A stretch of DNA of 64,000 nucleotides. Source: an uncultured bacterium. Lineage in GTDB: Bacteria > Joyebacterota > Joyebacteria > Joyebacterales > Joyebacteraceae. The stretch covers positions 118,023-182,022 of the forward strand of contig CAZQSB010000001.1 in NCBI GenBank assembly GCA_964596015.1, read 5' to 3'. The notes beneath the pieces were generated by a model, which searched no databases, had not been told where the DNA came from, and saw only the letters and a program-made list of their open reading frames with translations. Below, one piece after another: positions 17,666-44,541 of this stretch; within the stretch, counting starts at the first letter, position 1; the number at the start of each line of letters is the position of its first letter. The position numbers were made by a program, and so were the translations under genes.

Positions 17666-17726
17666 ATTGCGTCCTTTCGGTCCGCGTCGTCCGCCCTGTC
17701 CGGGTCGTCGGTTCGCATCCGCCTCG

Positions 17727-18554: not shown

Positions 18555-18607
18555 GCTGTTCCCGCAATCAGGCGTCCGCGCGGCGCGGCGAACGCCCCGC
18601 CCAAAGA

Positions 18608-19018: not shown

Positions 19019-19037
19019 GGGTCCCTCTCGCTACCGG

Positions 19038-30601: not shown

Positions 30602-30692
30602 TTGTGCGCCTCCGCGTGGTTGCGCGCTCGCCCCTGAAGAGGCTCCCCGAGCCGGGGCGCATCCCGGGGCCGAGACGGTCGCGGGGACCCCC

Positions 30693-31566: not shown

Positions 31567-33048
31567 ATGAACGCGCTCCTGGTCTACCCCGAGTTCCCCG
31601 ACACCTTCTGGAGCATGAAGCACGCTCTCAGGCTGGCCGGCAAGAAGGCCACCGCGCCTCCGCTCGGCCTCGTCACCATCGCGGCCATGCTGCCCGACGA
31701 CTGGTCTCTCCGGCTCGTCGACCTCAATATCGAGGATCTCGACGACAGCGATCTGGACTGGGCCGACGCCGTGCTCCTGAGCGGCATGATCATCCAGAGG
31801 GACGCCGCCCGGGCGATCATCGACCGCGCGAAGGCGAAGGGTCTGATGACCATCGCCGGCGGCCCGCTCTTCACGACGGAGCCCGAGAACTTCGACGACG
31901 TCGACCATCTCATTCTGGGCGAGGGCGAGGTGACGCTGCCCATGTTCCTTGCCGACCTCGAGAACGGCACGCCACGCCACGTCTACACGTCCGACGAACA
32001 TCCCGACATCAGGAACTCCCCTGTGCCGCGGTGGGACATCGTGCATCCCACGGCCTACACGAACCGCTCCGTCCAGTACTCGCGCGGCTGCCCCCACAAT
32101 TGCGACTTCTGCAGCGTGACCCAGCTCTTCGGTCACAGATGGCGCACCAAGACCGTCGAGCAGGTCATCGCTGAGCTGGACGCCATCTACGACTCCGGAT
32201 GGCGCAACTCGATCAACTTCGTGGACGACAATCTCGCCGGGCGCCCGAGGGTCCTCAAGGAAGAACTCCTCCCCGCCCTCATCGAGTGGCGTCGCGGGAA
32301 GGACGCGATGCCGTTCGGCACCCAGATCGGCATCGAGATCGCGGACGACCCGGAGCTCATGGCGATGATGGTCGAGGCCGGGTTCGCCTCCGTCTTCATC
32401 GGCATCGAGTCCGTTGACGAGGCGAGTCTCTCTGAATGCAACAAGCGGCAGAACCAGAACCGCGACCTTCTCGAGGACGTCCGCCGCATCCAGCGCGCCG
32501 GCCTCATGGTGACCGGCGGCTTCATTGTGGGCTTCGACCACGACGAGCCGGCTGTCTTCGACCGCATGACCGAGTTCATCCAGAAGAGCGGCATCACGAC
32601 CGCGATGGTCGGCGTCCTGCAGGCCCCGTCGGGAACGAAGCTCTTCGAGCGACTGCAGTCGGAGGGACGGATCGCCGGGGAGATGACGGGCGACAACGTG
32701 AACGGCCTCACGAACGTCGTGACCAAGATGGACCGTTCGACGCTGCAGCAGGGATACCGCCGCATGCTGCGCAGGCTGTATTCGGCCGACCAGTACTACG
32801 CGCGCATCCGCACGTTCATCAGGAACTACCGACCGCCGAGACGCCGACCCCCGAGACTCCGCGGCTGGCACATCAGGGCGTTCTTCCAGGCGCTCTACGA
32901 GCTGGGGATCGCGCGACGCGACGGGTGGCGCTACCACGTCCTGCTCTGGTGGACGCTCTTCCACAAGCCCCGCGCGTTCCCGACGGCCATCACGCTGGCG
33001 ATCGCCGGGTATCACTTCCAGCTTCTGGCCGACACTCTTCCCGAGTAG
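31567..33048 (+). CDS. B12-binding domain radical SAM protein with a DUF4070-type C-terminus
   Basis: It has an N-terminal cobalamin-binding-like Rossmann region and the radical SAM cluster motif CPHNCDFC. The C-terminal helical region is typical of DUF4070. Confidence 0.9.
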   Translation: MNALLVYPEFPDTFWSMKHALRLAGKKATAPPLGLVTIAAMLPDDWSLRLVDLNIEDLDDSDLDWADAVLLSGMIIQRDAARAIIDRAKAKGLMTIAGGPLFTTEPENFDDVDHLILGEGEVTLPMFLADLENGTPRHVYTSDEHPDIRNSPVPRWDIVHPTAYTNRSVQYSRGCPHNCDFCSVTQLFGHRWRTKTVEQVIAELDAIYDSGWRNSINFVDDNLAGRPRVLKEELLPALIEWRRGKDAMPFGTQIGIEIADDPELMAMMVEAGFASVFIGIESVDEASLSECNKRQNQNRDLLEDVRRIQRAGLMVTGGFIVGFDHDEPAVFDRMTEFIQKSGITTAMVGVLQAPSGTKLFERLQSEGRIAGEMTGDNVNGLTNVVTKMDRSTLQQGYRRMLRRLYSADQYYARIRTFIRNYRPPRRRPPRLRGWHIRAFFQALYELGIARRDGWRYHVLLWWTLFHKPRAFPTAITLAIAGYHFQLLADTLPE

Positions 33049-35362
33049 TTCCGCCGACGATCAGCCGGAGAAGCAGCCTCGCCGATTCCTTGTCGGGGAT
33101 CGGCCATCCACCCTGCGCGTCCGGGTCCTGCTGGATCGGGGGCCGAAGGACGGGCAGCCCGACGCACGACGGACATCCCTCCTCGCAAGGGCACTCCTCG
33201 ACGAGGTCGAGACAGCCCCGCATCAGCTCCTCGAAGCGGTGGTATCCCTGCTCGACGAAGCCCAGGCCCCCCTCATAGCGGTCGTACAGGAACATCGTGG
33301 GCGCCCCGGTGTTCGAGCTTTCGACAATCCCTCCGATGTCCCGCCGGTCGCACATGGCGAAGAGCGGCAGCACGCTGATGGCCATGTTCCGGATGCCGAC
33401 GAGCCCCTCGACGGGGTTCTTCCCCTGCTTCCTGACCGCGGCCATCACGTCCTTCGCGGGGATGAACCAGAGCGCGCGCGTCTCGAGATGGAAGGGCGGC
33501 AGGTCGAGATTGCACCAGCCGATGGAGTCCATCTTGTAGAACTGGATCTTCTTGAAGGCCGCCGTCACCCACGTGACCGTGGCGTCGCCGAAGACCAGCC
33601 GCCCGTCCTCCCGCGGAATGTGCTCGCGCTCCGCCTCGACGCGTATCGATGACTCGAGGATGGGTTGCGTGTAATAGTCGACCTCCTTCTTCTCGACGTA
33701 GGCGATCTTCTGCTCGAGGTCGAGGTCGCGCACGAAGTAGGTCTCGCCCTCGTGAAGGTAGATCGCCTCCGGGTAGACGAGCTCGAGCGCCGACACTCCG
33801 TCGACGACACCGACCGTCTGGTTCTCGTTGCCGACGTCGACGATGGTGTACGTGTCGTCGGAGATGGTCCGGAGGCTCAACTGGCGCGCGGGATACTCGG
33901 TCGAGGCCCAGTAGTGGCGTCCGTCGAGCTCCCGCACTTCATGGAACTCCTCAAGAAGATCCAGGATGGGCTCCGTCAGTTCACCGAAGAGCCTCTCGTC
34001 CTCCTCCCGGACCGGGAGTTCGAAGGCTGCGCATCGGAGGTGCTTCGCCAGGATGTAGCGGTTCTCGGGATCGATGACGGCGCTCTCCGGCGACTGACGG
34101 AAGAAGTACTCACCGTGACGCATGAGATACTGGTCGATCGGGTCGTTGTAGGCGACGAGAACGGCCAGCGACTCGTCGGACGTCCTGCCCGCGCGGCCGG
34201 CCTGCTGCCACGAGCTCGCGATCGTTCCCGGGAAGCCGACGATGATGGCGGCGTCGAGGCTCCCCACGTCGATGCCGAGCTCGAGCGCGTTCGTGCTCGC
34301 GACGCCCATGAGCTCGCCGCTGAAGAGCTGACGCTCGATCTCGCGACGCTCCTCCGGCAGATAGCCTCCCCGGTAGGGGCGGATCTTCCGGGCATACTCG
34401 GGCTTGGTCCGGGCCAGCGTGTCCTTGGCGTACCTGTAGATGAGCTCGGCGACGACGCGCGCCCGGCCGAACGCGATCGTCTGAAAACCCGAGGCGATGA
34501 GCTCGGCCATGAGCCAGTGGCCCTCGACGTTCGAGCTTCGCCGCTCCATCTCCGCCTCGTCGAGGAACGGCGGGTTCCAGAGCACGAAGTACTTCCTGCC
34601 CCTGGGACTGCCGTCGGTGTCGACCGTCGCGAACGGCAGGCCGGTCAGCCGCTCCGCCAGCTCCCCCGGATTGGCGATGGTCGCGCTCGAGGCGATGAAC
34701 TGCGGGTTCGAGCCGTAATGCTCGCACACCCGCCGGAGACGCCGGAGGACGTTCGCGACGTTCGAGCCGAAGATGCCGCGGTAGGTATGGATCTCGTCGA
34801 CCACCACGTACCTGAGGTCCTTCAGGAAGCGGTTCCACTTGGCGTGATACGGGAGGATCGCGGCGTGGAGCATGTCGGGGTTCGAGAGGATGATGTTCCC
34901 CTCGTCGCGGAGCTTCCGCCGCGTGTGCCGCGTGGTGTCGCCGTCGTAGGTCCCCGAACGGACGGCCTCGCCGATGCGACGGTCGAGCTCGCGCAGCCTC
35001 ACGAGCCCGCGCTGCTGGTCCTGCGCGAGCGCTTTCGTCGGGAAGAGATAGAGCGCCTTCGATGAGGGCTCCTCCAGGAGCGTCTCGATGACGGGGATGT
35101 TGTAGCAGAGCGTCTTGCCGGAGGCGGTGCCTGTCACGACCACGACGTTCCTGCCGTCGCGGACGCCCTCGATCGACTCGACCTGATGCGAGTAGAGCCG
35201 TTCGATGCCGGCCGCCGTGAGCGCTTCGGAGAGAGGCGTCGGGAGAGGCTCCTCGAGCTCACCGTACCGCGCCTCGCGCGCGGGGACGACCTCGACATGG
35301 CTGATCTGTCCGCGGTAGTACCTGTGGTGCCGCAGCGATTCGAGGAACCCGGCGATGGTCAT
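32990..35362 (-). CDS. DEXH-box helicase with a C-terminal DUF1998 zinc domain (MrfA/YprA-like)
   Basis: ATG at 35362 (MTIAGFLESL). Motif I is GTASGKT and motif II is VVDEIH. Motif VI is QQAGRAGR. The C-terminal Cys cluster is CPCEEGCPSC. The ORF upstream of 35362 is low-complexity and overlaps the next gene. Confidence 0.9.
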   Translation of the reverse strand: MTIAGFLESLRHHRYYRGQISHVEVVPAREARYGELEEPLPTPLSEALTAAGIERLYSHQVESIEGVRDGRNVVVVTGTASGKTLCYNIPVIETLLEEPSSKALYLFPTKALAQDQQRGLVRLRELDRRIGEAVRSGTYDGDTTRHTRRKLRDEGNIILSNPDMLHAAILPYHAKWNRFLKDLRYVVVDEIHTYRGIFGSNVANVLRRLRRVCEHYGSNPQFIASSATIANPGELAERLTGLPFATVDTDGSPRGRKYFVLWNPPFLDEAEMERRSSNVEGHWLMAELIASGFQTIAFGRARVVAELIYRYAKDTLARTKPEYARKIRPYRGGYLPEERREIERQLFSGELMGVASTNALELGIDVGSLDAAIIVGFPGTIASSWQQAGRAGRTSDESLAVLVAYNDPIDQYLMRHGEYFFRQSPESAVIDPENRYILAKHLRCAAFELPVREEDERLFGELTEPILDLLEEFHEVRELDGRHYWASTEYPARQLSLRTISDDTYTIVDVGNENQTVGVVDGVSALELVYPEAIYLHEGETYFVRDLDLEQKIAYVEKKEVDYYTQPILESSIRVEAEREHIPREDGRLVFGDATVTWVTAAFKKIQFYKMDSIGWCNLDLPPFHLETRALWFIPAKDVMAAVRKQGKNPVEGLVGIRNMAISVLPLFAMCDRRDIGGIVESSNTGAPTMFLYDRYEGGLGFVEQGYHRFEELMRGCLDLVEECPCEEGCPSCVGLPVLRPPIQQDPDAQGGWPIPDKESARLLLRLIVGGTTREECRPEAGSDTRRSPA

Positions 35363-35381
35363 GGGTGCAACTGCGCTCCGA

Positions 35382-36092
35382 TCATGTGACAGGGAACTGA
35401 CTCCAGTGACGGCCTTCGAGCTCTCTGCCGTTCCGCTTCTTGTTGAAGCCGCCCCACTGCTTGAAGAAGAAGGGGACTCCCTTGGCCAGGCACTGGTCGC
35501 GGATATCCATGACCCACCGACCATCGATGGGTCTCGCTCCCGGCCCTGACTCACCGCCGACGATCACCCAGTCGATTCCCGAGAGATCCACGCCCTTGAG
35601 TGGCCCCAGCAGAGGTTCGAGAGAAAGGAACTTCAGAGCCGCTCCTGTGCCTCTCAGGCAATCCGCCCTCCAGAGGTAGTCGGCCGTCTCGATGCTCACG
35701 CCCATCCAGATATTGCCTGCCCAGGGAAGCTCGCTTGTGTACTTCGCAAGACGGTCGGCGCGCTTCGTCAGAACCTGGAACCTGTGCCAGTATGCCTGGT
35801 TCATGGTCTTGAAGACGCGATGGATGAAGCTGAATTTGAGTTCCTCATGGAAGAGATCGCTCATCGAGTTGACGAAGACGTGACGCGGCTTCTTCCAGCG
35901 CAGGGGGATCTCCAAAGAGGACTCGTGGGGACTCAACTCGAATCCCCTCTCGTAGTTTGGGGAGCCCATTGCCTGCAGTCTTCGAGCCATGCGCTCGGCG
36001 TAGCAGTTGCGGCAGCCCGGGCTGATCTTCGTGCAACCTGTAACAGGGTTCCAGGTCGCGTCGGTCCATTCGATGCTGGAGTTGCCTGCCAT
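35382..36092 (-). CDS. DUF5131 (phage Gp37/Gp68 family) three-Cys-motif protein
   Basis: Motifs [27 protein letters not shown] (C-x6-C-x2-C), [26 protein letters not shown] and FFFKQWG are present. G+C is lower than in the flanks. Confidence 0.85.
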
Positions 36093-36109
36093 AGAGGCTT
36101 CCCTCCCAT

Positions 36110-36964
36110 CTAGAACAGCTCCTGCTGAGGGATGGAGTACTTCCGAGCCTGCGCGAAGAACTCCCTTCCAAGAGCGTTGCGGCTGTAGAACACCAGGTGA
36201 TAGAGAATCCTCCGGTTGCTCGGTAGTCGAATCGGCACAGCATGTTCGCGTCCGCCATGCTCGTACCCAAGTGACAACATGCGCTCGTCGTAGAGATCAA
36301 GAAGCAGTTTCTCGGGAGCATCCCCTGCTCTTCTAGCATCTTCGAGCCGCGCTCTCCAGTCTGGGACACCTGTGAAGCCAGCAACTGGATCCCTGTCTGA
36401 GGTTTCATAGCCCCGACAGAACCGAGCGAACTGCATTTCCGTTGGCACGAGCACGAGGAAGTCCATGTACCGCGTCGAGAGTTTCTCAACTGTCGCGAAG
36501 TCCAAGTTGCTCATACCCCAGGGGTCTGCGAAGCAGAAACCAAGGGAGCTCTCGCCTCGTCTGAGGGCAGGAAGGGCGTCCAGAACTTGATCCACCATCT
36601 CGTTCGTATTGCCCAGCAGAAAGCAACAGTCAGATCCCGGCTTGTACCTCAGCACCCGTGACCTGAGTGCGTCGAGACACTCCGCGTCCTGCTCGCAGAA
36701 GACGTAGTGCGTGAATGGCTCCTTCACCGACAAGGCAAGAAGAGGAGAGGTCAAGACGACACGGCCCGCGTCTACATCCATCGCCTTGCCCGCACCGGCA
36801 AAGAGGTCCACATAGACCCTGTGAGTCCACTTCTTCTTCATCGAAGAAGAGAACAGCTCCGCATAGCCCAGCAGAAGCGAGTGCTTGCCCCGCGCGTAGC
36901 TCTTGATAGGGGGAGTCGGAAGACCGTCATCCTCAGCAGGCCCCAGTGCGTCTGGCATTCCCAT
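36110..36964 (-). CDS. tcmP: Three-Cys-motif partner protein TcmP-like (methyltransferase-like motifs)
   Basis: 284 aa. It contains VDLFAGAG (SAM motif I-like) and FADPWG (motif IV-like). It sits immediately upstream of DUF5131, the defining genomic context of TcmP. The start may be the ATG at 36958. Confidence 0.7.
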
Positions 36965-36971
36965 CCCTCTC

Positions 36972-37391
36972 TCACTCCCCGATGATCTTCACGAGGACGC
37001 GCTTCCGCCGCCCGCCGTCGAACTCGCCGTAGAAGACCTGCTCCCAGGGCCCGAAGTCAAGCTTCCCCGCCGTCACGGCGACGACCACCTCCCGGCCCAT
37101 CACCTGGCGCTTGAGGTGCGCGTCGCCGTTGTCCTCGCCGGTGCGGTTGTGCTCGTAGGCGCTGACGGGCTCGTGTGGCGCGAGCCGTTCGAGCCAGCGC
37201 TCGTAGTCCTTGTGGAGGCCCTTCTCGTCGTCATTGATGAAGACGGAGGCCGTGATGTGCATCGCATTCACGAGCACGAGCCCCTCGGTGACGCCCGACT
37301 CCTCGAGGGCCTCCTCGACCTGCGGCGTGATGTTGATGAACGCCCGTCTGCCGGGCGTGTTGAACCAGAGTTCCTTGCGATACGACGTCAT
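36972..37391 (-). CDS. yjbQ: YjbQ/UPF0047 family protein (secondary thiamine-phosphate synthase-like)
   Basis: 139 aa. The signature regions are [11 protein letters not shown] and GDAHLK...[16 protein letters not shown]. Confidence 0.88.
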
Positions 37392-37852
37392 CCTGCCCCA
37401 CCTTCCTCGTGGATCTTCCGCCTCAGTTCATCGAACCTCGGTGCGACCTCCTCAGCCCACCCTTCGATGCCGATCTCGCGGATCCTCTCCAGGTTCCGGA
37501 GCGCGCCCTGATACTGGGGCCTTGCGTGGAACTCCGCAATGGTCTCACACGTCTCCCAGTCGTCGCACTCGACGCAGAGACGGACGTTCCGCTCCCTTGC
37601 GCAGGCGAGGATCCTGCAGTCGGGGCTCCAGTGCCTGTCGAGCGGCCCCCGACAGCTCTCGCAGACGATGTCGCTCGCCTTGCACTCGACGCCGGCGTTC
37701 GCCACGAGCCATTCGGCGATCTTCTGCTGCGCCGCCGTGTTGCCAGTGATGTGCGCCTCCCGCATGTCGCAGACCCCGCAGTAGATGCCGCACGGCGCGA
37801 GCAGCTCCAGGTCGACTCTGTACACCGCTTCCCCCTCAGGCCCCGAGTTCAT
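37388..37852 (-). CDS. DUF3795-like cysteine-rich protein
   Basis: Cysteine patterns present are [24 protein letters not shown] and [10 protein letters not shown]. Its stop overlaps the yjbQ start (ATGA). Confidence 0.7.
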
Positions 37853-38765
37853 CCTCCAGGAGGTCCATCATCAGCTCCGCGTTGTTGGCGGCGTGGCCCG
37901 CGTGGCAGTTGTTGAAAAACGCATAGACCTTCTTCGCCCTCGACTCGAGATCGAGGAGCTTCGCGGACCACTCCGAGAGCTCGGCCCCGGAGTAGTCGTA
38001 GTCGTAGCGGTCGCCGCCCTTCCCCCACCAGTTCTTCGCGTTCCGACCGTGGAGCCTCACGTACCCGATGTCGGTCGTGGCCTCGACCACGGGCGGGATG
38101 AGGCCCTTGAGCGACGGCTCATCGACCGAGCAGTATCCGAGACCCTCTTCTCTGAGAAACGTGAAGGTTGAGTCGTCCATCCACGAGTCGTGGCGGAACT
38201 CGACGAAGAGCGGGTCGTCGGGAAGGCCGTTCCTGAGGTACGCGAGATGCTCCAGGGCCTCATCGTCCTTCTTGAACTTCCAGGGAAACTGCGCGAGGTA
38301 CCCCCCGAACTTGCCCGCCTCACGGAACGGCGCGACGGCGTCCTGGAACGCGCGGAAGTGCGAGGGATCGTTCTCGATCTCGTGCGTCATCCCCTTGTAG
38401 AGCTTCACAACGAACTCGAACCCCGGCGGCGTCCTCCGCTCCATGCGCTCGAACATCCGAGGGTCGGGAACGCGATAGTAGCTCGTGTTGATCTCGACGA
38501 CGTCGAAGTGCCGAACGTATTCCTCGAGCATGCGGTTCCTGGGAGTGCGCTCGGGATAGAACGTGCCGACCCAGTCGGCGAAGCTGTATCCGGAGGTCCC
38601 GATGCGGATGCGTCCCTCGCGCCCGAACCAGCGGACCCCGGGCGGGCTCTCCCTGCTGTCCCAGGCTCCCGCGCCGTCGGCGAGTCCGTTCCTCTTCTTC
38701 GGAAGGTCGCCGAACAGGTCGCCCTGCGCGTTGTTGGCTCTCACCTCGTGCCGTCCTCCCTGCAA
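37836..38765 (-). CDS. DUF72 (YecE-like) TIM-barrel protein
   Basis: The N-terminus reads IRIGTSGYSFADWVGTFYP...FDVVEINTSYY, and the C-terminus reads YAFFNN. The first approximately 50 aa may be an extension and the start is uncertain. Confidence 0.85.
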   Translation of the reverse strand: MQGGRHEVRANNAQGDLFGDLPKKRNGLADGAGAWDSRESPPGVRWFGREGRIRIGTSGYSFADWVGTFYPERTPRNRMLEEYVRHFDVVEINTSYYRVPDPRMFERMERRTPPGFEFVVKLYKGMTHEIENDPSHFRAFQDAVAPFREAGKFGGYLAQFPWKFKKDDEALEHLAYLRNGLPDDPLFVEFRHDSWMDDSTFTFLREEGLGYCSVDEPSLKGLIPPVVEATTDIGYVRLHGRNAKNWWGKGGDRYDYDYSGAELSEWSAKLLDLESRAKKVYAFFNNCHAGHAANNAELMMDLLEDELGA

Positions 38766-38796
38766 GTGCCTGCCGCCCGCCGGCGGCTTCGAACCA

Positions 38797-40227
38797 CTAT
38801 CGTCGCGGGCCGCCCCCGTCGTCGATGTCCTGGAACCTCAGCATGTCGGAGGGGCTCGACGAGAGGCCCGGCGGCAGCGCGATGGTGTCGAGATGGGGAG
38901 CGGCGTCGTGCCATCCCGCCATGATCGACTGCGGCCGGTCCTCGCCCAGCCCCATCCGCATGAAGCGCGGCTCCGACACGCGGTGCTTCGAGTACCACAT
39001 CTTCGCGTTCCTCGAGACGAGGCGGGCGCGCGTGATGGCCTCCTCCCCGAACTTATCACGGATCGCGTCGAGAGCGTTCAGGAGCTTCCGGTGCGAGTCC
39101 TCGTCCTTCTGCCGGAAGAGGTCGACCTGCAGAACGTCCGGCACCCGGACGAGCCCCGAGCAGTTGACCCCCACGAGCCTGATGGCCTGTCCCGGGCGCC
39201 AGTGACGGTGCATGAGGTCGCGCGCGACGCGGTAGATGACCCTCTCCTCGTCGGTGTAGAACTTGATCTTCCTCTGACGGCCCACCGAGTCGAAATCCGA
39301 GAACCTGAGGCGCATGGAGATGACGTCCCCCATGTACTCCTTCTTCCGCATGCGCCTCGCTACCTGGTCGCAGAGGCGAAGGAGCACCTTCTCGGCCTCG
39401 CGGATGTCCCACGTGTCCTCGGGCAGCGTGTGTTCATGCCCCATCGACTTGACCGGCATCCCTTCGTAGTAGGGAACGACCGGCGTGTCGTCCTGCCCGC
39501 ACGCCATCAGGTGGAGGATCTCCCCCATGATGCCGAAGCGGCGCCGGAGCATGGCGACCGGGAACTCCGAGAGCTCTCCGATGGTCGTGACCCCCATCAT
39601 GCCGAGGGCCACGGCGGTCTTCGTCCCGACGCCCCAGATGTCGGTGACCGGACGGTCGCGGAAGACCTTCATGAACTCGCCCGGGTAGATGACGGTCATG
39701 CCGTCGGGCTTGTCTCTCCCTGAGCACATCTTGGCGACGAGCTTGTTCGGGCCGATGCCGACCGACGCGGTGATGCCGAAACGCTTCCGGATCGTCTCCT
39801 TGATCTCCCGGGCGACCTCGGTCGCGTTCTCCCACGTGCACTCGGTCCCGGTCATCTCGACGAACGCCTCGTCGATCGAGTACGGCTCGACGATGGTCGA
39901 GTAGGACTTGTAGATGCGCAGGAGTTCGAGCGAGACGTAGATGTACTGGCCCGGATTCCCCTCGACGGCGACGACGTGCGGGCAGCGCCGGAACGCCTCC
40001 GCCGTCGGCATCGCCGAGTGGATGCCGTACTCGCGCGCCTCGTACGACGCGGCCGCCACGACGCTCCTGGTGGTCGGCTTGCCGCTGACGATGACCGGCA
40101 GGCCACGGAGTTTCGGTCGGCACATCACCTCGACCGACGCGAAGAACGCGTCCATGTCGATGTGGAAGACAAGGCGCTCATCCCTTGATGAGCCGACGCG
40201 CGCTTCCTTTCTGTGACGTCCCAGCAT
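38797..40227 (-). CDS. dinB: DNA polymerase IV (Y-family) with a C-terminal extension
   Basis: ATG at 40227 is preceded by GAGAGAGG. Motifs HIDMDAFFASVE and SIDEAF are present, followed by palm/fingers/little-finger order. A tail of about 70 aa lies beyond the usual end. Confidence 0.93.
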   Translation of the reverse strand: MLGRHRKEARVGSSRDERLVFHIDMDAFFASVEVMCRPKLRGLPVIVSGKPTTRSVVAAASYEAREYGIHSAMPTAEAFRRCPHVVAVEGNPGQYIYVSLELLRIYKSYSTIVEPYSIDEAFVEMTGTECTWENATEVAREIKETIRKRFGITASVGIGPNKLVAKMCSGRDKPDGMTVIYPGEFMKVFRDRPVTDIWGVGTKTAVALGMMGVTTIGELSEFPVAMLRRRFGIMGEILHLMACGQDDTPVVPYYEGMPVKSMGHEHTLPEDTWDIREAEKVLLRLCDQVARRMRKKEYMGDVISMRLRFSDFDSVGRQRKIKFYTDEERVIYRVARDLMHRHWRPGQAIRLVGVNCSGLVRVPDVLQVDLFRQKDEDSHRKLLNALDAIRDKFGEEAITRARLVSRNAKMWYSKHRVSEPRFMRMGLGEDRPQSIMAGWHDAAPHLDTIALPPGLSSSPSDMLRFQDIDDGGGPRR

Positions 40228-40263
40228 GGTCGCCTCTCTCGGGGAGAGAGAACTCCCCGTCGT

Positions 40264-41142
40264 TCAGTTCTTCTTCGCCGTCCGCTTCTTCGTCCGTCGC
40301 CGAGCCTTCGTCCGTCGCGTCTTCTTTCCCCGCGCCATCCGGGACCGCGGCTGACACGTCGGGCAGATGAAGCTCGTCGTACTTCCGGTCTTGAGCTTCT
40401 TCACGGGCGTGCCGCACGTCGGGCACGGTTTCCCCTCGCGGTACGCGACGAGGAGGTCGTCGACCGAGAAGCGACCGGGGCGGCCGAAGAGGTCCCGCTC
40501 GTAGAACGCTCCGCCCTTCTTGAGACTCGGTTTCAGACCGTCACGGATCGCCTTCCACAGCCCGTCGACCTCCTCGTCGGTCAATGTGTCGAGCCCGCGA
40601 AGCGGATGGAGCCCCGCCAGAAAAAGAATGTCGTGCACGTAGGCGTTCCCGATGCCGGCGACGCGCTCCTGGTTCAGAAGGAACGACTTCACGCCGCCCC
40701 GTCTGCCGTGGACGAGCTCCCGGAACTGTCGCTTTGTGAGATCGAGCACATCGGGGCCGAGCTTCGCGATGGGCGCGTGGTCTTCGAGCCCGGCCGCGAC
40801 ATGCGTGTGGCCGAACCACCAGAAATTGACGGCGAGGCTTCTCCCGTCGTCGAGGTGGAAGGTGACCCGCCGTTTCTCAGGGAGTTCGTCGGACGGGACG
40901 AGCAGAAGCTCGCCTCCCATGCCGAGGTTGATGAGAAGATACCCATCCGACATGTCCGCGACGATCCACTTGCCGCGGTGCGACACGTCCTCGAAGCGCG
41001 CGCCCTCAAGGCGCTTCGAGAACGTCCGCTTCGAGACGTTCAGGCACTTCGGCTGCAGGACCTCGATGCCGGTGATGGTCCGCCCCGTGAGATGCTTCCG
41101 CAACTCGCTCGCCCTGTTCGCTATCTCGGGAAGCTCGGGCAT
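40264..41142 (-). CDS. mutM: Formamidopyrimidine-DNA glycosylase (Fpg/Nei family) with a Lys/Arg-rich tail
   Basis: It has the N-terminal MPELPEI, an H2TH region, and the zinc finger CPTCGTPV...CPTCQ. A 27-aa basic tail follows (RGKKTRRTKARRRTKKRTAKKN). Confidence 0.9.
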   Translation of the reverse strand: MPELPEIANRASELRKHLTGRTITGIEVLQPKCLNVSKRTFSKRLEGARFEDVSHRGKWIVADMSDGYLLINLGMGGELLLVPSDELPEKRRVTFHLDDGRSLAVNFWWFGHTHVAAGLEDHAPIAKLGPDVLDLTKRQFRELVHGRRGGVKSFLLNQERVAGIGNAYVHDILFLAGLHPLRGLDTLTDEEVDGLWKAIRDGLKPSLKKGGAFYERDLFGRPGRFSVDDLLVAYREGKPCPTCGTPVKKLKTGSTTSFICPTCQPRSRMARGKKTRRTKARRRTKKRTAKKN

Positions 41143-41145
41143 CCT

Positions 41146-41463
41146 CTAGGAACCCTCCAGGTCGGTCCGCGTGAGAAGCCAACCCATCGTGCGGGTGTCG
41201 TAGACCAGCTCGAAGAAGTCGTCTTCGGTCGTGACGACCGAGAAATGATGATGCTTGTACTGCCCCTCGCGCACTTCCCAGCGGCCGGTGATGCGCTCGA
41301 CGTCGACGACGCGGTTTCGCCACCGGAAGCGCAGGGGGTCGAGCCGTCCTCCGCTGAACCGCGTCAGCACGGTGACGGCCTCGTTGATCTCCTGGATCAT
41401 AGGGTCGGGTCCCCTCGATGCTGTCGGTCGCATGTCCCTGTCCCTCGTTCCCATCGACTCCAC
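41146..41463 (-). CDS. Small hypothetical protein (85-105 aa)
   Basis: Its stop lies 3 nt before the fpg start. The core reads LDPLRFRWRNRVVDVERITGRWEV...FFELVYDTRTMGWLL. The start is uncertain, with candidates at 41463, 41454 and 41400. Confidence 0.5.
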   Translation of the reverse strand: MESMGTRDRDMRPTASRGPDPMIQEINEAVTVLTRFSGGRLDPLRFRWRNRVVDVERITGRWEVREGQYKHHHFSVVTTEDDFFELVYDTRTMGWLLTRTDLEGS

Positions 41464-41626
41464 ACGCCCCCGCGAGAGGCTTCCTCGACCTCACCTGCTT
41501 CCCGGACTCGGGGGTCCCTCTTCGCTCAGACACCCGCCGCCCTCCGGGCGGCGAGAACTCGCTCGGGAGGGACCCCCTCGCCCGGGGTTTCAGGGGCGGC
41601 GATCTCTCTCGCCGGGCGTCCGGCGG

Positions 41627-42394
41627 CTACGGGAGCGCGCCGACAGGCATGAGGCCGAACGGCTCGATCTCGGGCTCGCCGAGCACGCCCGCTACATCCT
41701 CGTCGGAGAACGCGCCGACGAACACGGTACCCAGGCCCAGGCTCTCCGACTGCAGATAGATGTTCTCCGCGACCGCGCCGACCTCGATGTGAACGTATCG
41801 CTCCGCCCGGTCGCCGTACTTGGACGCCGTCCTGGACGGCACCGCGCCGATGACGACCACGGCCGCCGCGTCGGCGACCCACTCCTGCGAGAGCGCTGCG
41901 TCCGAGAGCATGGGCCGCACGTCCGCGATCTCGACGACCGCGAGGTCGTGCGCCTCCGGGTCGTAGTGATAGAGCCCCGCCGGCAGGTCCGTGACGCGTC
42001 CAGCCGCGACGTAGATCTCGATGGGGTAGAGCGCGCCGGCCGACGGAGCGGCCCGGTGTCCGTCGCCCGTGACGCCCTGCGCGGCCCAGAGGAGCTGCGA
42101 GAGGTCGGCGAGCGGCATGGGCTCATCCGAGTAGGCCCTGACCGAGCGCCGTCCGCTGATCGCCCGCTCGACCGGCATGGAGCTGATCCGGGGCGCCGGC
42201 AGCGCGACCCGGTCGGGCCGGACCGCCCGTGCCGCGGAGAGGTCGGTGGTCGGTGTGTCCACCGAACGCTCCATCTCCTTCGCGGGTCCGTCCAGCACCA
42301 GGAGAGCGCCCATGATCAGGATGACGAGCGCCACGAAGGAGAGCGCCTGGGTCACCGATCCGCTCCTATTGCTTCTCCGCACGTTGTTCATCAC
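41627..42394 (-). CDS. SagB-type dehydrogenase / nitroreductase-fold protein with an N-terminal TM anchor
   Basis: The TM helix is ALSFVALVILIMGALLV. The fold signature reads RRSVRAYS...LLWAAQG...PSAGALYPIE...YHY. Confidence 0.8.
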   Translation of the reverse strand: MMNNVRRSNRSGSVTQALSFVALVILIMGALLVLDGPAKEMERSVDTPTTDLSAARAVRPDRVALPAPRISSMPVERAISGRRSVRAYSDEPMPLADLSQLLWAAQGVTGDGHRAAPSAGALYPIEIYVAAGRVTDLPAGLYHYDPEAHDLAVVEIADVRPMLSDAALSQEWVADAAAVVVIGAVPSRTASKYGDRAERYVHIEVGAVAENIYLQSESLGLGTVFVGAFSDEDVAGVLGEPEIEPFGLMPVGALP

Positions 42395-42472
42395 GTCCTC
42401 CCTGTTCCTTGAGACGCTTCCGGTCCCCGCGATGCTCGTCGCCTCCGCCGCGGGACTCCGGAAGAGCCCGCC

Positions 42473-43096
42473 CTAGAACTTCCGCATCAGGCCGACGACC
42501 GTCCCGAGGAGCCGCGTCTCCGCGTCGCCCTCCCTGAGCACGATGTCGTCGTACTCGGGGTTCCGCGCCTCGAGAACGACCTGCCCCTTCCGACGCGAGT
42601 ACACCTTGACGGTGGCTTCGTCGTCGATGAGCGCGACGACGACATCCCCCGTCTTCGCCGTCGGCTGCGGGTTCACCGCGACGACGTCGCCGTCGAGGAT
42701 GCCCGCGTCCCTCATGCTGTCGCCCGTGACCCGGAGCGCGAAGCATCCGTCGCCCCGCACGAACATGTCGTCGACCGCGATCTCGTCCTCGACGTTCTCG
42801 ATGGCGAGGATCGGCGCGCCGGCCGCGACGCTGCCGACGAGCGGGATCCGGGTGACGTCCGCCCTCGCGGCGGGCGCGTGGTGCTCGAGCCACTCGATCC
42901 CGCGCGAGATCCCCTTGTTCCGACGGATGTACCCGCGCTCCTCGAGCGCGTCGAGGTGGTAGCGGACCCCGTTCGTCGAGGCGATGCCGAACTCGTCGCC
43001 TATCTCGCGGATGGTCGGCGACCGGTCGTGGTCGCGGATGGTCTCGACGATGAAGTCGAGGATCCTCTGTTGTGTCGGTGTCAGGTCGTGTCGCAT
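42473..43096 (-). CDS. lexA: LexA repressor
   Basis: ATG at 43096. It has a winged-HTH N-terminus (PTIREIGDEFGIASTNGVRYHL), the cleavage site VAAG, Ser in GDSM, and Lys in ATVKVY. Confidence 0.93.
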   Translation of the reverse strand: MRHDLTPTQQRILDFIVETIRDHDRSPTIREIGDEFGIASTNGVRYHLDALEERGYIRRNKGISRGIEWLEHHAPAARADVTRIPLVGSVAAGAPILAIENVEDEIAVDDMFVRGDGCFALRVTGDSMRDAGILDGDVVAVNPQPTAKTGDVVVALIDDEATVKVYSRRKGQVVLEARNPEYDDIVLREGDAETRLLGTVVGLMRKF

Positions 43097-43172
43097 CGCG
43101 TCTCTCCCGGAGCGTGCCGCAGCGGGCGTTTTCCGCCCGCCGTCACACAGAAGGACGGCCTGGAAGCCCTCC

Positions 43173-43186
43173 TGCACATCTGTGCA
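43173..43186. promoter_or_regulatory. Putative LexA (SOS) box 1
   Basis: TGCACATCTGTGCA is a 14-bp dyad (TGCAC-N4-GTGCA). It lies just downstream of the predicted -10 element of lexA. Confidence 0.65.
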
Positions 43187-43188
43187 CC

Positions 43189-43217
43189 AGACTACTGCAC
43201 ACATGTGCACCCGTCAA
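43189..43217 (-). promoter_or_regulatory. Predicted lexA operon promoter
   Basis: On the minus strand: TTGACG (43217-43212), a 17-nt spacer, then TAGTCT (43194-43189). It lies about 90 nt upstream of the lexA ATG. Confidence 0.45.
43196..43209. promoter_or_regulatory. Putative LexA (SOS) box 2
   Basis: TGCACACATGTGCA has the same dyad arms. It lies inside the -35/-10 spacer of the predicted lexA promoter. Confidence 0.65.
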
Positions 43218-43220
43218 GGC

Positions 43221-43251
43221 AAAAAGAAGGACCGCCCTGATGAGGCGGCCC
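43221..43251 (-). terminator. Intrinsic terminator of the ars-like operon
   Basis: On the minus strand: gggccgcc-tcatcag-ggcggtcc (8-bp stem with one G-U pair), followed by TTCTTTTT. It lies 74 nt after the arsC stop. Confidence 0.65.
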
Positions 43252-43324
43252 TTTCGATACGATGCGCGCTGCCGATACTGAGGATCCGGCGGCCCGGACG
43301 ACCCCCCGTCCGCCGCCGCCCGAA

Positions 43325-43753
43325 CTAGCGACCGACCTCCTCGACCCACGCCTTGACCTTCGCTTCGATCTCGTCCCGGACCCGACGGAACGTCTCGAGC
43401 CTCTCCTCCTCGGCGCCCTCGTGCGCGGCCGGGTCATCGAACGGCCAGTGCGCGCGCTGTCCGACGCCGGGGAACGCCTTCGGACATTGCTTCTCGGCCT
43501 CAGCGCAGACCGTCACGAGATACCCGAAGTGCTTCTTCCCGAGATACTCGTCCACGCTCTTCGAGCGCTGCCCCGCGAGGTCGTATCCGACCTCCTCCAT
43601 GACCTGCCGGGTCATGGGGTGGATCTCCGACGGCTCGAAACCCGCGCTCGCCGCCTCGAAGCGGTCGCCCCCATATCTCCGGAGGAACGCCTCCGCCATC
43701 TGGCTTCTCGCCGTGTTGCCGGTGCACAGGAAGAGCACGGCCGGTCTGTTCAC
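43325..43753 (-). CDS. arsC: Arsenate reductase, LMW-PTP/thioredoxin-coupled type
   Basis: The GTG start overlaps the upstream stop (GTGA). The P-loop is CTGNTARS and the distal cysteines are VCAEAEKQC. Confidence 0.9.
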
Positions 43754-44531: not shown

Positions 44532-44541
44532 ACAGAGCCTC

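What the first reader, a model, noticed from the sequence alone, without database searches (positions are those of the whole stretch)
32990..43217. A 10-kb, 11-gene LexA-headed operon mixing known repair enzymes with seven genes of unknown function
Eleven consecutive minus-strand genes run from lexA (start 43096) to the helicase stop (32990).

Junctions in order: 78 nt; 163-226 nt; 3 nt; 36 nt; 31 nt; 17-nt overlap; 4-nt overlap; 7 nt; 17 nt; 19 nt.

The block is insulated upstream by a good intrinsic terminator (43221-43251). It then has a promoter carrying two SOS-type dyads. It ends where it converges on the radical SAM gene.

Three members are classical damage-response genes: fpg, dinB, and an MrfA-like DEXH/DUF1998 helicase.

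The rest have no established repair role:
- a TM-anchored SagB-type nitroreductase-fold protein
- a small protein of about 90 aa
- DUF72
- cysteine-rich DUF3795
- YjbQ
- TcmP
- DUF5131

If this is one LexA-controlled transcript, it is a guilt-by-association case for a previously undescribed multi-enzyme lesion-processing module. It would be far larger than the familiar lexA-imuA-imuB-dnaE2 cassettes.
Basis: partly seen in the sequence, partly recalled or inferred. Interest (0 to 1): 0.8.

Follow-up and report, generated by a model that had tools for sequence, protein, structure and literature searches.

The report
LexA-headed SOS repair operon, mosaic
This is the DNA-damage (SOS) operon of an uncultured Eisenbacteria-type bacterium: a conserved core of the repressor LexA, a bypass polymerase with a small partner protein, and the MrfA repair helicase, onto which strain-variable genes, including a horizontally acquired defence-type gene pair, have been added.

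Summary
Eleven minus-strand genes run from lexA to an MrfA helicase with the stated junctions. An intrinsic terminator sits upstream. Two perfect TGCAC-N4-GTGCA palindromes overlap a TTGACG-17-TAGTCT promoter.

The dyads are very probably LexA operators. In 848 kb of related loci, perfect copies occur only in front of lexA (16 loci). The one exception is a locus where the same boxed promoter directly heads dinB...mrfA without lexA.

The "11-gene module" is an evolutionary mosaic:
- The simplest form found in distant relatives is lexA-dinB-mrfA-mrfB.
- Eisenbacteria-type loci add a DUF6504-like small protein, fpg, DUF72 and often DUF3795. The small protein lies directly upstream of a Y-family polymerase gene in 6 of 7 contexts outside this clade.
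- A variable slot lies before mrfA. Here it holds yjbQ and tcmP-DUF5131.

tcmP-DUF5131 pairs a methyltransferase-fold protein with a radical-SAM-like protein. It has foreign codon composition, matches PADLOC defence candidates PDC-M41/M30, and elsewhere sits in defence islands. Its tcmP allele is swapped (51% identity) between strains that are otherwise 98-100% identical.

An MrfB exonuclease homologue lies 3.4 kb beyond the stated end.

Co-transcription and LexA binding remain untested. Verdict: a new variant of the lexA-dinB type of SOS operon.

The parts
43227..43253 (-). Intrinsic terminator that ends the upstream ars-like genes (ArsP permease, thioredoxin_3, LMW phosphatase). An 11-pair stem is followed by CTTTTT, which abuts the lexA -35.
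   Evidence: upstream gene families
43189..43217 (-). lexA promoter: -35 TTGACG (43217-43212), 17-nt spacer, -10 TAGTCT (43194-43189).
   Evidence: sequence. It is the only TTGAC/TTGNCA-N16-18-TANNNT match on this strand in 32900-43300. The same architecture occurs in L002, L003, L013, L033 and L099.
43196..43209 (.). LexA operator 1, TGCACATGTGTGCA, a perfect palindrome inside the -35/-10 spacer.
   Evidence: conserved upstream of lexA in 16 other loci
43173..43186 (.). LexA operator 2, TGCACAGATGTGCA, 23 bp from operator 1 and covering the predicted transcription start.
42473..43096 (-). lexA (207 aa). LexA_DNA_bind + Peptidase_S24. The VAA|G cleavage site, GDSM serine and TVK lysine are readable in the translation.
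   Evidence: TIGR00498, 200 bits against cut-off 111
41627..42394 (-). SagB-type nitroreductase-fold protein with an N-terminal TM helix. It follows lexA in the relatives L002, L010, L012, L015, L019, L091 and the P0004 contig, is absent in others, and is only 79% identical in the sister strain.
41464..41626 (-). Intergenic long hairpin: -103 kcal/mol, z = -5.2, no U-tract. It is conserved in L091 and L012 with compensatory changes in the inner stem. It may act as an attenuator or processing element. It is single copy and has no Rfam match.
41146..41400 (-). Small all-beta protein (84-aa conserved core; the ORF could start at 41463), a distant DUF6504 (PF20114) member. Candidate partner of the Y-family polymerase.
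40264..41142 (-). Fpg/Nei-family DNA glycosylase: N-terminal PELPE, H2TH, zinc finger, and a Lys/Arg-rich C-terminal tail.
38797..40227 (-). DinB / Pol IV Y-family polymerase (476 aa). The catalytic motifs HIDMDAFF and SIDEAF are present.
37836..38765 (-). DUF72 TIM-barrel protein (TM1631-like). It follows dinB directly in every Eisenbacteria-type locus that covers the junction, and also in L098 and L099.
   Evidence: UVDE-like fold and lexA/polB2 linkage reported in PMC11791011
37388..37852 (-). Cysteine-rich DUF3795 protein. It is present in about two thirds of related clusters and is cleanly deleted in the 98%-identical strain L091.
36972..37391 (-). YjbQ/UPF0047. It has native codon usage but occurs at this position only in the closest relatives (L011, L091, L092).
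36110..36964 (-). TcmP. The predicted fold is a Rossmann SAM-methyltransferase, closest to RlmJ; the family consensus carries DLFAGAG and a DP(Y/W) motif. It is horizontally acquired (GC3 0.68) and its allele is replaced in the sister strain (51% identity).
35382..36092 (-). DUF5131 three-Cys (radical-SAM-like) protein, the partner of TcmP. It matches PADLOC PDC-M41B/M30B (E=1e-114 and 8e-111) and phrog_2045. GC3 is 0.77.
   Evidence: assigned to radical SAM megacluster 5-2 in PMC9477430
32990..35362 (-). MrfA/YprA-family DEXH helicase (DEAD, Helicase_C, WHD_HRQ1, MZB/DUF1998). It is the last gene of the block and converges on the B12-radical-SAM gene at 31567-33048.
28765..29571 (-). Outside the stated coordinates: an MrfB-type DEDDh exonuclease homologue (RNase_H_2; PDB 8UN9 MrfB, E=3e-24). 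It is separated from mrfA by the opposite-strand radical-SAM gene, an MBL-fold gene (30693-31373) and an MR_MLE gene (29558-30601). mrfB lies directly after mrfA in L003 and L033.

Best explanation
This is the lexA locus of a Candidatus Eisenbacteria-type bacterium. It is organised as an autoregulated SOS operon with a conserved core and a flexible accessory part.

Shown:
- A sigma-70-like promoter is overlapped by two perfect TGCAC-N4-GTGCA palindromes.
- It is followed by lexA and ten tightly packed same-strand genes.
- The operator-promoter design is conserved in every related locus that includes the region upstream of lexA.
- In one lineage it directly heads dinB...mrfA without lexA.

Inferred mechanism:
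1. LexA dimers occupy the two operators, one in the -35/-10 spacer and one over the transcription start, and block RNA polymerase.
2. DNA damage generates RecA filaments that trigger LexA self-cleavage. The Ala-Gly site and the Ser/Lys dyad are present.
3. Transcription then reads from lexA through to mrfA.

Inferred products:
- A translesion polymerase (DinB) with a DUF6504-like small partner.
- An Fpg/Nei glycosylase.
- A UVDE-like TIM-barrel protein (DUF72), a candidate damage endonuclease.
- The MrfA helicase, which with MrfB (encoded 3.4 kb further on) excises bulky mitomycin-type adducts.

Inferred evolution:
- The simplest form in the distant relatives is lexA-dinB-mrfA-mrfB.
- Eisenbacteria-type genomes added DUF6504, fpg, DUF72, DUF3795 and the nitroreductase.
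- A slot just upstream of mrfA exchanges cargo: yjbQ, glyoxalase/Ble-like, Ogt, alpha/beta-hydrolases, or tcmP-DUF5131.
- The tcmP-DUF5131 pair here is a horizontally acquired nucleic-acid-modification or defence-type cassette that uses the operon as a landing pad. It is not a core repair component.
For: Gene identities.

Operators:
- Two perfect palindromes, and nothing else with 0 or 1 mismatch, in 64 kb.
- In 848 kb of related loci, every perfect match lies 36-275 nt upstream of lexA (16 loci, mostly as a pair 23 bp apart).
- The single exception is L013, where TTGACG-N2-TGCACAAGTGTGCA sits 46 nt upstream of dinB, after a terminator and with no lexA.
- The architecture is the same in lineages whose LexA is only 41-52% identical.

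Operon compactness:
- Junctions are at most 78 nt, except for one gap.
- No other sigma-70-like promoter lies on this strand.
- Terminator-like hits do not exceed the shuffle expectation, and the two internal ones lie inside coding sequence.

Synteny:
- Among loci that cover dinB to mrfA, all 17 Eisenbacteria-type loci have DUF72 directly after dinB and mrfA at the end.
- The minimal form lexA-dinB-mrfA occurs in L033-L036, with mrfB after mrfA in L033 and L003.

DUF6504 and the polymerase:
- The small protein and its homologues hit PF20114.
- It lies immediately upstream of an IMS-family gene in L039, L095, L096, L097 (Planctomycetota), L098 and L099. L100 is the exception.

tcmP-DUF5131 as foreign cargo:
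- GC3 is 0.68/0.77 against 0.85-0.95 for the neighbours. The same contrast is seen in L018 and L091.
- It hits PADLOC PDC-M41/M30.
- Its contexts elsewhere are defence islands, and in S. meliloti TcmP sits beside the Hna defence helicase (PMC12445080).
- TcmP is 51% identical and DUF5131 99.6% identical between strains that are otherwise 98-100% identical.
- The pair is absent in L011, where yjbQ abuts mrfA.

Accessory genes of a genotoxin-resistance type in sister clusters: glyoxalase/Ble-like, GyrI-like/Cass2, APH, Ogt and alpha/beta-hydrolases.
Against: - There are no expression or binding data. Co-transcription of all eleven genes is inferred from spacing and from the absence of detectable signals.
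- The promoter and terminator scans are crude. The standard scan even misses the lexA promoter itself.
- The 163-nt gap after the nitroreductase gene holds a conserved hairpin of -103 kcal/mol. It could terminate or process the transcript.
- In L008 and L009 the lexA unit ends in a terminator after ogt. The fpg-dinB-DUF72 block then lies behind an opposite-strand gene with no recognisable box. LexA control of dinB is therefore not universal in the clade.
- The window's mrfB is separated from mrfA by an opposite-strand gene and has no box upstream.
- Equating TGCAC-N4-GTGCA with the published Fibrobacter LexA box rests on my memory. I could not retrieve the source.
- The partner role of the DUF6504-like protein rests on gene adjacency only. 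Its model has no structural match in the PDB.
Confidence: 0.7

Rival explanations
1. Only lexA, perhaps with the nitroreductase gene, is under LexA control. The hairpin at 41464-41626 acts as a terminator or processing site, and the small gene through mrfA is expressed from an unrecognised internal promoter. On this reading the cluster is a co-located repair island and not one SOS transcript.
For: - A very stable, conserved hairpin fills the only long gap.
- L008 and L009 show that lexA and the dinB block can be uncoupled without a second box.
- The promoter scans are insensitive.
Against: - The hairpin has no U-tract and is absent from most relatives, where the same junction is 0-60 nt.
- No sigma-70-like hexamer pair lies in the gap or anywhere else on this strand.
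- L013 puts the boxed promoter directly before dinB...mrfA.
- The minimal lexA-dinB-mrfA arrangements have almost no intergenic space.
Confidence: 0.2
2. One reading: all eleven products, including YjbQ, TcmP and DUF5131, form one dedicated multi-enzyme lesion-processing pathway. DUF5131 would act as a radical-SAM repair enzyme related to spore-photoproduct lyase.
For: - DUF5131 is placed in radical SAM megacluster 5, next to the spore photoproduct lyase subgroup.
- The pair sits immediately upstream of mrfA in three lineages: the window, L091/L092 and L018.
- In L018 the DUF5131 ORF (ending 6198) overlaps the mrfA start at 6195.
Against: - The pair has foreign GC3 in all three lineages.
- It is absent from most clusters.
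- Its homologues are closest to PADLOC defence candidates and lie in R-M, TIR and AbiE islands.
- Whole-gene tcmP allele replacement occurs between near-identical strains.
- yjbQ and DUF3795 are also dispensable between close relatives.
Confidence: 0.1
3. The distal part, tcmP-DUF5131-mrfA, is an anti-phage system built around a YprA-family helicase, as in DISARM, Dpd and Druantia. It would be only coincidentally adjacent to the SOS genes.
For: [quoted passage not shown]
- The helicase gives partial PADLOC hits to BrxH, DruE and DpdF.
- In S. meliloti, TcmP neighbours the Hna defence helicase.
Against: - The helicase matches B. subtilis MrfA over its full length at E=4e-209.
- It ends the cluster in all relatives whether or not the pair is present.
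- It is accompanied by an MrfB homologue.
- The PADLOC hits cover only the generic helicase core.
Confidence: 0.07

Closest known systems
lexA-dinB operons of Geobacter sulfurreducens (Jara et al. 2003; recalled from memory, not retrieved here)
   Same: An autoregulated lexA is co-transcribed with a dinB-type Y-family polymerase from a promoter that carries a LexA palindrome. The minimal relatives L034, L036, L040 and L046 look exactly like this.
   Different: Here the unit continues into mrfA (and mrfB). In Eisenbacteria-type genomes it has gained DUF6504, fpg, DUF72, DUF3795 and exchangeable cargo. The operator sequence is also different.
lexA-imuA-imuB-dnaE2 mutagenesis cassette (Abella 2004, Erill 2006; from memory)
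   Same: It is a LexA-headed, multi-gene, damage-inducible cassette centred on a Y-family-type protein with a small accessory protein.
   Different: There is no imuA, imuB or dnaE2. The polymerase here is a catalytically intact DinB (DMD and DE motifs). The cassette is coupled to excision functions (MrfA, Fpg, DUF72) and not to a second polymerase.
Bacillus subtilis MrfAB mitomycin-C repair pair (bioRxiv 10.1101/426304; PMC7797055; PMC11194089)
   Same: The MrfA orthologue has the full domain set. An MrfB-type DEDDh exonuclease homologue is present. The two genes are adjacent in the relatives L003 and L033.
   Different: The B. subtilis preprint I searched does not mention LexA. Here mrfA is the terminal gene of a LexA-boxed operon with dinB. 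In the window, mrfB is split off by three inserted genes.
Fibrobacter succinogenes LexA box TGCNCN4GTGCA (Mazon et al. 2004; from memory, source not retrievable)
   Same: The 14-bp palindrome consensus is the same. Eisenbacteria and Fibrobacter are both placed in the FCB group (my knowledge).
   Different: Binding has not been shown for this LexA. The operators are doubled, 23 bp apart. A related low-GC lineage uses CACAC-N4-GTGTG in the same promoter position (L098).
PADLOC phage-defence candidates PDC-M41 and PDC-M30; NCBIfam TcmP (TIGR04474) with its three-Cys-motif DUF5131 partner
   Same: The two-gene architecture is identical. DUF5131 matches at E=1e-114 and 8e-111, and TcmP at E=2e-17. 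TIGR04474 scores 117 bits against a cut-off of 53. The pair has a mobile, patchy distribution.
   Different: Here the pair is embedded in an SOS operon directly upstream of mrfA and not in a defence island. No function has been demonstrated for the family.
Small partner genes upstream of Y-family polymerases (umuD-umuC; YolD-like yqjX-yqjW in B. subtilis; from memory)
   Same: A gene of about 85-120 aa lies immediately upstream of, and is often translationally coupled to, a Y-family polymerase gene in a LexA-controlled unit.
   Different: The DUF6504-like protein has no detectable sequence or fold similarity to UmuD (no S24 domain). Its all-beta model matches nothing in the PDB. I did not test YolD similarity specifically.

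Membership tests
LexA-autoregulated SOS operon | The repressor has a LexA DNA-binding domain plus an S24 self-cleaving domain, with an Ala-Gly site and a Ser/Lys dyad. | tested here: met
   Pfam LexA_DNA_bind + Peptidase_S24 and TIGR00498 at 200 bits against cut-off 111. VAAG, GDSM and TVK are read in the translation.
LexA-autoregulated SOS operon | A palindromic operator overlaps its own promoter and is conserved in relatives. | tested here: met
   Two perfect 14-bp palindromes in and next to the -35/-10 spacer. They are conserved upstream of lexA in 16 loci and found essentially nowhere else in 848 kb.
LexA-autoregulated SOS operon | LexA binds the operator, and transcription is induced by DNA damage. 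| not testable with these tools
   This needs EMSA or footprinting, and RNA-seq with and without mitomycin C or UV.
LexA-autoregulated SOS operon | All listed genes lie on one transcript. | tested here: inconclusive
   In favour: short or overlapping junctions, no internal promoter-like site, no canonical internal terminator, and L013. Against: the conserved hairpin in the 163-nt gap and the uncoupling seen in L008 and L009.
MrfAB repair system | MrfA: an SF2 DEXH helicase with a winged-helix domain and a C-terminal Zn-binding MZB/DUF1998 domain. | tested here: met
   Pfam DEAD, Helicase_C, WHD_HRQ1 and MZB. PDB 6ZNP at E=4e-209 over residues 26-737.
MrfAB repair system | The MrfB DEDDh exonuclease is encoded with MrfA. 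| tested here: met
   Window 28765-29571 hits RNase_H_2 at E=6e-35 and PDB 8UN9 MrfB at E=3e-24. It is not adjacent here (3.4 kb away, with three genes between) but is adjacent in L003 and L033.
MrfAB repair system | It confers mitomycin-C-specific resistance. | not testable with these tools
   This needs genetics in a cultivable host.
TcmP / DUF5131 pair (PADLOC PDC-M41/M30) | A TIGR04474 protein is encoded adjacent to, and upstream of, a PF07505 three-Cys protein. | tested here: met
   TIGR04474 at 117 bits against cut-off 53. PF07505 at 331 bits. The gap is 17 nt. PDC-M41A/B and M30A/B hits.
TcmP / DUF5131 pair (PADLOC PDC-M41/M30) | Mobile and horizontally transferred, occurring in defence or prophage contexts. 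| tested here: met
   GC3 deficit. Patchy taxonomy of homologues. R-M and integrase/TIR/AbiE neighbourhoods. phrog_2045.
TcmP / DUF5131 pair (PADLOC PDC-M41/M30) | Anti-phage activity. | not testable with these tools
   As I understand PADLOC's naming, PDC systems are candidates only, and I found no experimental paper.
DUF6504 (PF20114) | The sequence matches the Pfam model above its gathering threshold. | tested here: inconclusive
   Window protein 21.2 bits, L003 23.4 bits and L039 22.3 bits, all against cut-off 24.2. Many homologues at 41-51% identity carry a precomputed PF20114 hit. It is best called a divergent branch of the family.
Fpg/MutM | N-terminal catalytic Pro-Glu, an H2TH motif and a C4 zinc finger. 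| tested here: met
   All three Pfam domains are found. MPELPE and CPTC...CPTC are read. The NCBIfam equivalog scores fall below cut-off (182 against 212), so the Fpg versus Nei specificity is open.

The most novel reading that the evidence does not exclude
The conserved core (DUF6504-like protein, DinB, DUF72, MrfA/MrfB) is a previously undescribed SOS-inducible pathway for bulky natural-product adducts that works independently of UvrABC. In this reading the DUF6504 protein is a dedicated accessory subunit of Pol IV-type polymerases, filling the role UmuD or YolD plays for other Y-family enzymes, across several phyla. DUF72 is the damage-specific endonuclease that provides the nick from which MrfA unwinds and MrfB degrades. 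The slot upstream of mrfA recruits genotoxin-resistance or DNA-modification cargo, including tcmP-DUF5131, so that the cargo is expressed only on DNA damage.
Probability: 0.25. Interest if true: 0.75.

Novelty: new variant of a known kind. Interest (0 to 1): 0.55.

Why it matters
As far as I could find, this is the first inferred description of an SOS operator and lexA operon for Candidatus Eisenbacteria.

It links three things that I did not find connected in the papers I searched:
- LexA control of the MrfAB mitomycin-type repair pair.
- A recurrent pairing, across phyla, of a DUF6504-like protein with DinB-type polymerases.
- The constant DinB-DUF72 adjacency.

Each link gives a concrete, testable functional hypothesis for a "domain of unknown function".

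The locus also shows an SOS operon acting as a landing pad for a mobile pair made of a methyltransferase-fold protein and a radical-SAM-like protein, with allele replacement at strain level. That is relevant to how defence-type cassettes acquire damage-inducible expression.

The general architecture, lexA heading a translesion-synthesis or repair operon, is already well known.

Tried and rejected
- Standard promoter scan: it finds nothing in the region, not even the lexA promoter. I replaced it with a laxer custom scan.
- Relaxed box pattern TGCNC-N4-GNGCA: the extra hits lie inside DUF3795, dinB and mrfA coding sequence. I judged them to be chance.
- The 2-mismatch hit at 35356-35369 spans the mrfA start codon. 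I also judged it chance.
- Hairpin as a dispersed REP or MITE element: rejected, because it is single copy in the window and in 94 loci. It has no Rfam family.
- Small protein: the AlphaFold model has pLDDT 78, but Foldseek against the PDB gives nothing below E=0.68. There is no PHROG, PADLOC or NCBIfam hit, and no paper mentions DUF6504.
- TcmP and DUF5131 have no sequence relatives in the PDB. Only the TcmP fold search was informative.
- Literature: I could not retrieve the Fibrobacter LexA-box sequence. I found no paper linking MrfA to LexA regulation.
- DUF72 homologues at about 50% identity in Deferribacteres and Zixibacteria MAGs (L004-L007) show none of the other cluster genes by tblastn. 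I did not analyse their neighbourhoods further.
- Idea that TcmP variation is confined to a target-recognition subdomain: rejected. The 51% identity is spread evenly over the whole protein without gaps.
- Unknown ORFs in sister clusters gave no Pfam hit: hyp338, the opposite-strand 144-aa gene, and the 2.5-kb stretch of L003.

Full report
**1. Observation**

The ORF list and family scans confirm eleven consecutive minus-strand genes.
- lexA, 42473-43096.
- TM-anchored SagB-type nitroreductase-fold protein, 41627-42394.
- Small protein, 41146-41400/41463.
- fpg, 40264-41142.
- dinB, 38797-40227.
- DUF72, 37836-38765.
- DUF3795, 37388-37852.
- yjbQ, 36972-37391.
- tcmP, 36110-36964.
- DUF5131, 35382-36092.
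- DEXH helicase, 32990-35362. It is an unambiguous MrfA/YprA orthologue (PDB 6ZNP, E=4e-209).

The junctions recomputed equal those in the finding.

Upstream, an ars-like set of genes (ArsP permease, thioredoxin_3, LMW phosphatase) ends in an 11-pair hairpin plus T-run at 43253-43227.

The promoter follows immediately. It reads TTGACG (43217-43212), 17 nt, TAGTCT (43194-43189).
- TGCACATGTGTGCA (43209-43196) lies in the spacer.
- TGCACAGATGTGCA (43186-43173) lies just downstream.
- These are the only matches with 0 or 1 mismatch in the 64-kb window.

The window has about 66% G+C. Its relatives are Candidatus Eisenbacteria/Effluviviaceae MAGs.

**2. The dyads are LexA operators by phylogenetic footprinting**

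I gathered 100 related loci using several anchors.
- DUF72 anchor in genomes.
- dinB anchor in metagenomes.
- Contexts of small-protein and TcmP homologues.

In the 848 kb available, every perfect TGCAC-N4-GTGCA lies 36-275 nt upstream of a lexA gene. This holds in 16 loci, usually as two boxes 23 bp apart.

There is one exception. In L013 the same -35/box arrangement (TTGACG-cc-TGCACAAGTGTGCA) follows a terminator and sits 46 nt upstream of dinB. No lexA is present there, and the box heads dinB-DUF72-DUF3795-hydrolase-mrfA.

The architecture persists where LexA is only 41-52% identical (L003, L033, L034, L036, L040, L046).

A low-GC relative has CACAC-N4-GTGTG in the same spacer position (L098).

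The motif equals what I recall as the Fibrobacter succinogenes LexA box. I could not retrieve that source.

LexA itself has the cleavage site and the catalytic Ser/Lys.

**3. One operon?**

Evidence in favour:
- Junctions are short or overlapping.
- The lexA promoter is the only TTGAC/TTGNCA-N16-18-TANNNT match on this strand across 10.4 kb. Shuffles give an expectation of 0.12.
- Terminator-like hits do not exceed chance, and the two internal ones lie inside coding sequence.
- L013 shows a boxed promoter driving the dinB...mrfA block directly.

Evidence for caution:
- The 163-nt gap after the nitroreductase gene folds into a hairpin of about 140 nt (-103 kcal/mol, z = -5.2).
- That hairpin is identical in L091. 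In L012 the outer stem is conserved and the inner stem carries compensatory changes.
- It is single copy and matches no Rfam family.
- It lacks a U-tract, and most relatives do not have it; in them this junction is 0-60 nt.
- In L008 and L009 the lexA unit (lexA-orf52-small-ogt) ends at a bidirectional terminator. The fpg-dinB-DUF72 block lies beyond an opposite-strand gene with no box.

Co-transcription is therefore likely here, at roughly 0.6-0.7, but it is not proven.

**4. The cluster is a mosaic**

The tblastn map shows three layers.

(a) A minimal form, lexA-dinB-mrfA, occurs in L033-L036. L040 and L046 show lexA-dinB. mrfB lies right after mrfA in L033 and L003.

(b) The Eisenbacteria-type form has the order lexA-[nitroreductase]-small-[DUF6144]-fpg-[338-aa protein]-dinB-DUF72-[DUF3795]-slot-mrfA.
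- Among loci spanning dinB to mrfA, all 17 have DUF72 directly after dinB.
- About two thirds of them have DUF3795.

(c) The slot before mrfA carries different cargo in different loci (Pfam assignments).
- Nothing: L010, L016, L019, L027.
- yjbQ: L011.
- yjbQ + tcmP-DUF5131: the window, L091, L092.
- tcmP-DUF5131: L018.
- Ogt + glyoxalase: L015.
- Alpha/beta-hydrolase, with or without glyoxalase: L013, L017, L024.
- An unassigned stretch followed by a glyoxalase: L002.

L015 also carries a GyrI-like/Cass2 protein and an APH-family kinase between the small gene and DUF6144. L008 and L009 add Ogt, a Ble-like protein and a PF13941 protein. Much of this cargo looks like small-molecule genotoxin resistance.

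**5. tcmP-DUF5131 is foreign cargo**

Composition:
- GC3 is 0.68 and 0.77, against 0.85-0.95 for every neighbour, yjbQ included.
- The same contrast is seen in L018 and in L091.

Family matches:
- DUF5131 matches PADLOC PDC-M41B and PDC-M30B at E=1e-114 and 8e-111. TcmP matches the A components.
- DUF5131 is also phrog_2045.

Distribution:
- The best TcmP homologues outside this strain group are at most 52% identical. They are scattered over Desulfuromonadota-type genera, Elusimicrobiota and Actinobacteria.
- In Geothermobacter the pair follows a Type I R-M system. In a Syntrophotaleaceae MAG it lies in an island with an integrase, a group-II intron, TIR and AbiEi.
- In S. meliloti, TcmP sits next to the Hna defence helicase (PMC12445080).

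Strain comparison:
- L091 and L092 are a sister strain in which nearly all shared genes are 97-100% identical at protein level, including DUF5131 at 99.6% (the nitroreductase, at 79%, is the other outlier).
- Their TcmP is only 51% identical, evenly along its length. That indicates whole-gene allele replacement.

Fold:
- A confident TcmP model (pLDDT 93) has a Rossmann SAM-methyltransferase fold, closest to the rRNA m6A methyltransferase RlmJ (Foldseek E about 4e-6, TM about 0.5).
- The family consensus carries DLFAGAG and a DP(Y/W) motif.
- DUF5131 belongs to radical SAM megacluster 5-2, listed next to the spore-photoproduct lyase subgroup (PMC9477430).

I read the pair as a nucleic-acid-modifying, defence-type cassette riding on the SOS operon.

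Its repeated position directly upstream of mrfA (three lineages; in L018 the DUF5131 ORF overlaps the mrfA start) keeps a functional link to MrfA possible. I rate that link as unlikely.

**6. The small protein**

- Its 84-aa core is 63-77% identical across the clade.
- Three divergent members each hit DUF6504 just under threshold.
- A profile search recovers 115 homologues, many already tagged PF20114.
- Outside the clade it lies immediately upstream of a Y-family polymerase gene in 6 of 7 contexts: L039, L095, L096, L097 (Planctomycetota), L098 and L099.
- The exception, L100, has only a DinB_2/YfiT-type gene nearby.
- lexA precedes it and DUF72 follows the polymerase in L098 and L099.
- The model is all-beta (pLDDT 78) and has no PDB match.

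I infer a polymerase-accessory role from gene linkage only.

**7. Beyond the stated coordinates**

- Window 28765-29571 encodes an MrfB-type exonuclease (RNase_H_2, E=6e-35; PDB 8UN9 MrfB, E=3e-24).
- Between mrfA and mrfB lie the convergent B12-radical-SAM gene, an MBL-fold gene and an MR_MLE gene.
- The order mrfA-MBL-MR_MLE-(mrfB) is conserved in L015, L019, L025, L027, L031 and L091.
- No LexA box precedes the MBL gene. In this genome mrfB is therefore probably transcribed separately.

**8. Comparison with known systems, and verdict**

- A lexA gene heading a Y-family polymerase operon is a known design: Geobacter lexA-dinB and lexA-imuA-imuB-dnaE2 (both from memory).
- An association of DUF72 with lexA and TLS polymerase loci, and its UVDE-like fold, have been noted before (PMC11791011).
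- MrfAB is an established MMC repair pair. The papers I searched do not link it to LexA.
- What appears new: the Eisenbacterial operator and operon, the lexA-dinB-mrfAB linkage, the DUF6504-DinB pairing, and a mobile cassette captured with allele swapping.

Its interpretation is partly supported. The cluster is a conserved LexA-headed repair operon, but it is not a fixed eleven-enzyme machine. I rate it a new variant of a known kind, with interest about 0.55.

Noticed in passing
window 41464-41626 (minus strand): A hairpin of about 140 nt (-103 kcal/mol, z = -5.2) fills the gap between the nitroreductase and the small gene. It is identical in L091. In L012 the outer stem is conserved and the inner stem shows compensatory changes. 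It is single copy and has no Rfam family. It may be an attenuator or an RNA-processing element.
   Followed up: partly
window 36110-36964 vs L091 7001-7861: Between strains that are otherwise 98-100% identical in protein sequence, TcmP is only 51% identical over its whole length, while the adjacent DUF5131 is 99.6% identical. This is whole-gene allele replacement inside the operon.
   Followed up: yes
window 37411-37835 vs L091 6554-6575: The DUF3795 gene is cleanly absent from the sister strain. In the alignment, the last ~20 nt of the window's DUF3795 (GAGGAAGGTGGGGCAGGATG) correspond to L091's DUF72-yjbQ spacer, and a loosely similar GGAAG-containing stretch follows the DUF72 stop in the window. 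L011 also lacks the gene.
   Followed up: partly
window 28765-31373 (minus strand): An MrfB-type exonuclease homologue (28765-29571) lies 3.4 kb downstream of mrfA, behind MBL-fold (30693-31373) and MR_MLE (29558-30601) genes. The order mrfA-MBL-MR_MLE-(mrfB) recurs in six related loci. mrfB directly follows mrfA in L003 and L033.
   Followed up: yes
window 32990-33048: The B12-binding radical SAM/DUF4070 gene (31567-33048, + strand) converges on mrfA and overlaps its 3' end by 59 nt. The same insertion is present in L019 and L091 but not in L010, L015, L025 or L027.
   Followed up: partly
L003 1709-2302 and L099 5657-6016: An IS200-like Y1 transposase gene sits between lexA and the DUF6504-like gene in two diverged genomes. 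The two Tnp proteins are 57% identical. The conserved position inside an SOS operon may mean domestication.
   Followed up: no
L098 about 3700-3760: A relative with 50% GC has TTGACA-ac-CACACATATGTGTG-g-TATGAT upstream of lexA-441aa-DUF6504-dinB-DUF72. This is a variant palindrome, CACAC-N4-GTGTG, in the same spacer position.
   Followed up: no
L008 / L009 about 9000-20300: A larger version of the locus. lexA-orf52-small-ogt ends at a bidirectional terminator. After an opposite-strand gene come PF13941 (MutL-like ATPase), a Ble-like protein, AAA, DUF6144, (DUF3795), fpg, a 338-aa unknown, dinB and DUF72, with no LexA box.
   Followed up: partly
L015 3945-5499; L013 3147-4052; L002 12267-12707: Accessory genes inside sister clusters look like small-molecule genotoxin resistance: GyrI-like/Cass2, an APH-family kinase, alpha/beta-hydrolases, glyoxalase/bleomycin-resistance proteins and Ogt.
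   Followed up: partly
window 43325-45843: An ars-like gene set (ArsP permease, thioredoxin_3, a 181-aa unknown, LMW phosphatase/ArsC-like) lies directly upstream of lexA on the same strand. An LMW phosphatase/ArsC-like gene also lies upstream of lexA on the same strand in L002, L009, L025, L027 and L091, at varying distance.
   Followed up: no
window 40264-40345: The Fpg homologue ends in a Lys/Arg-rich tail of about 27 residues (PRSRMARGKKTRRTKARRRTKKRTAKKN), beyond the zinc finger. Canonical Fpg, as I recall it, has no such tail.
   Followed up: no
window 41627-42394 vs L091: The nitroreductase-fold protein is 79% identical between the two near-identical strains, while its neighbours are 99% identical. 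This is a second locally divergent gene in the operon.
   Followed up: no
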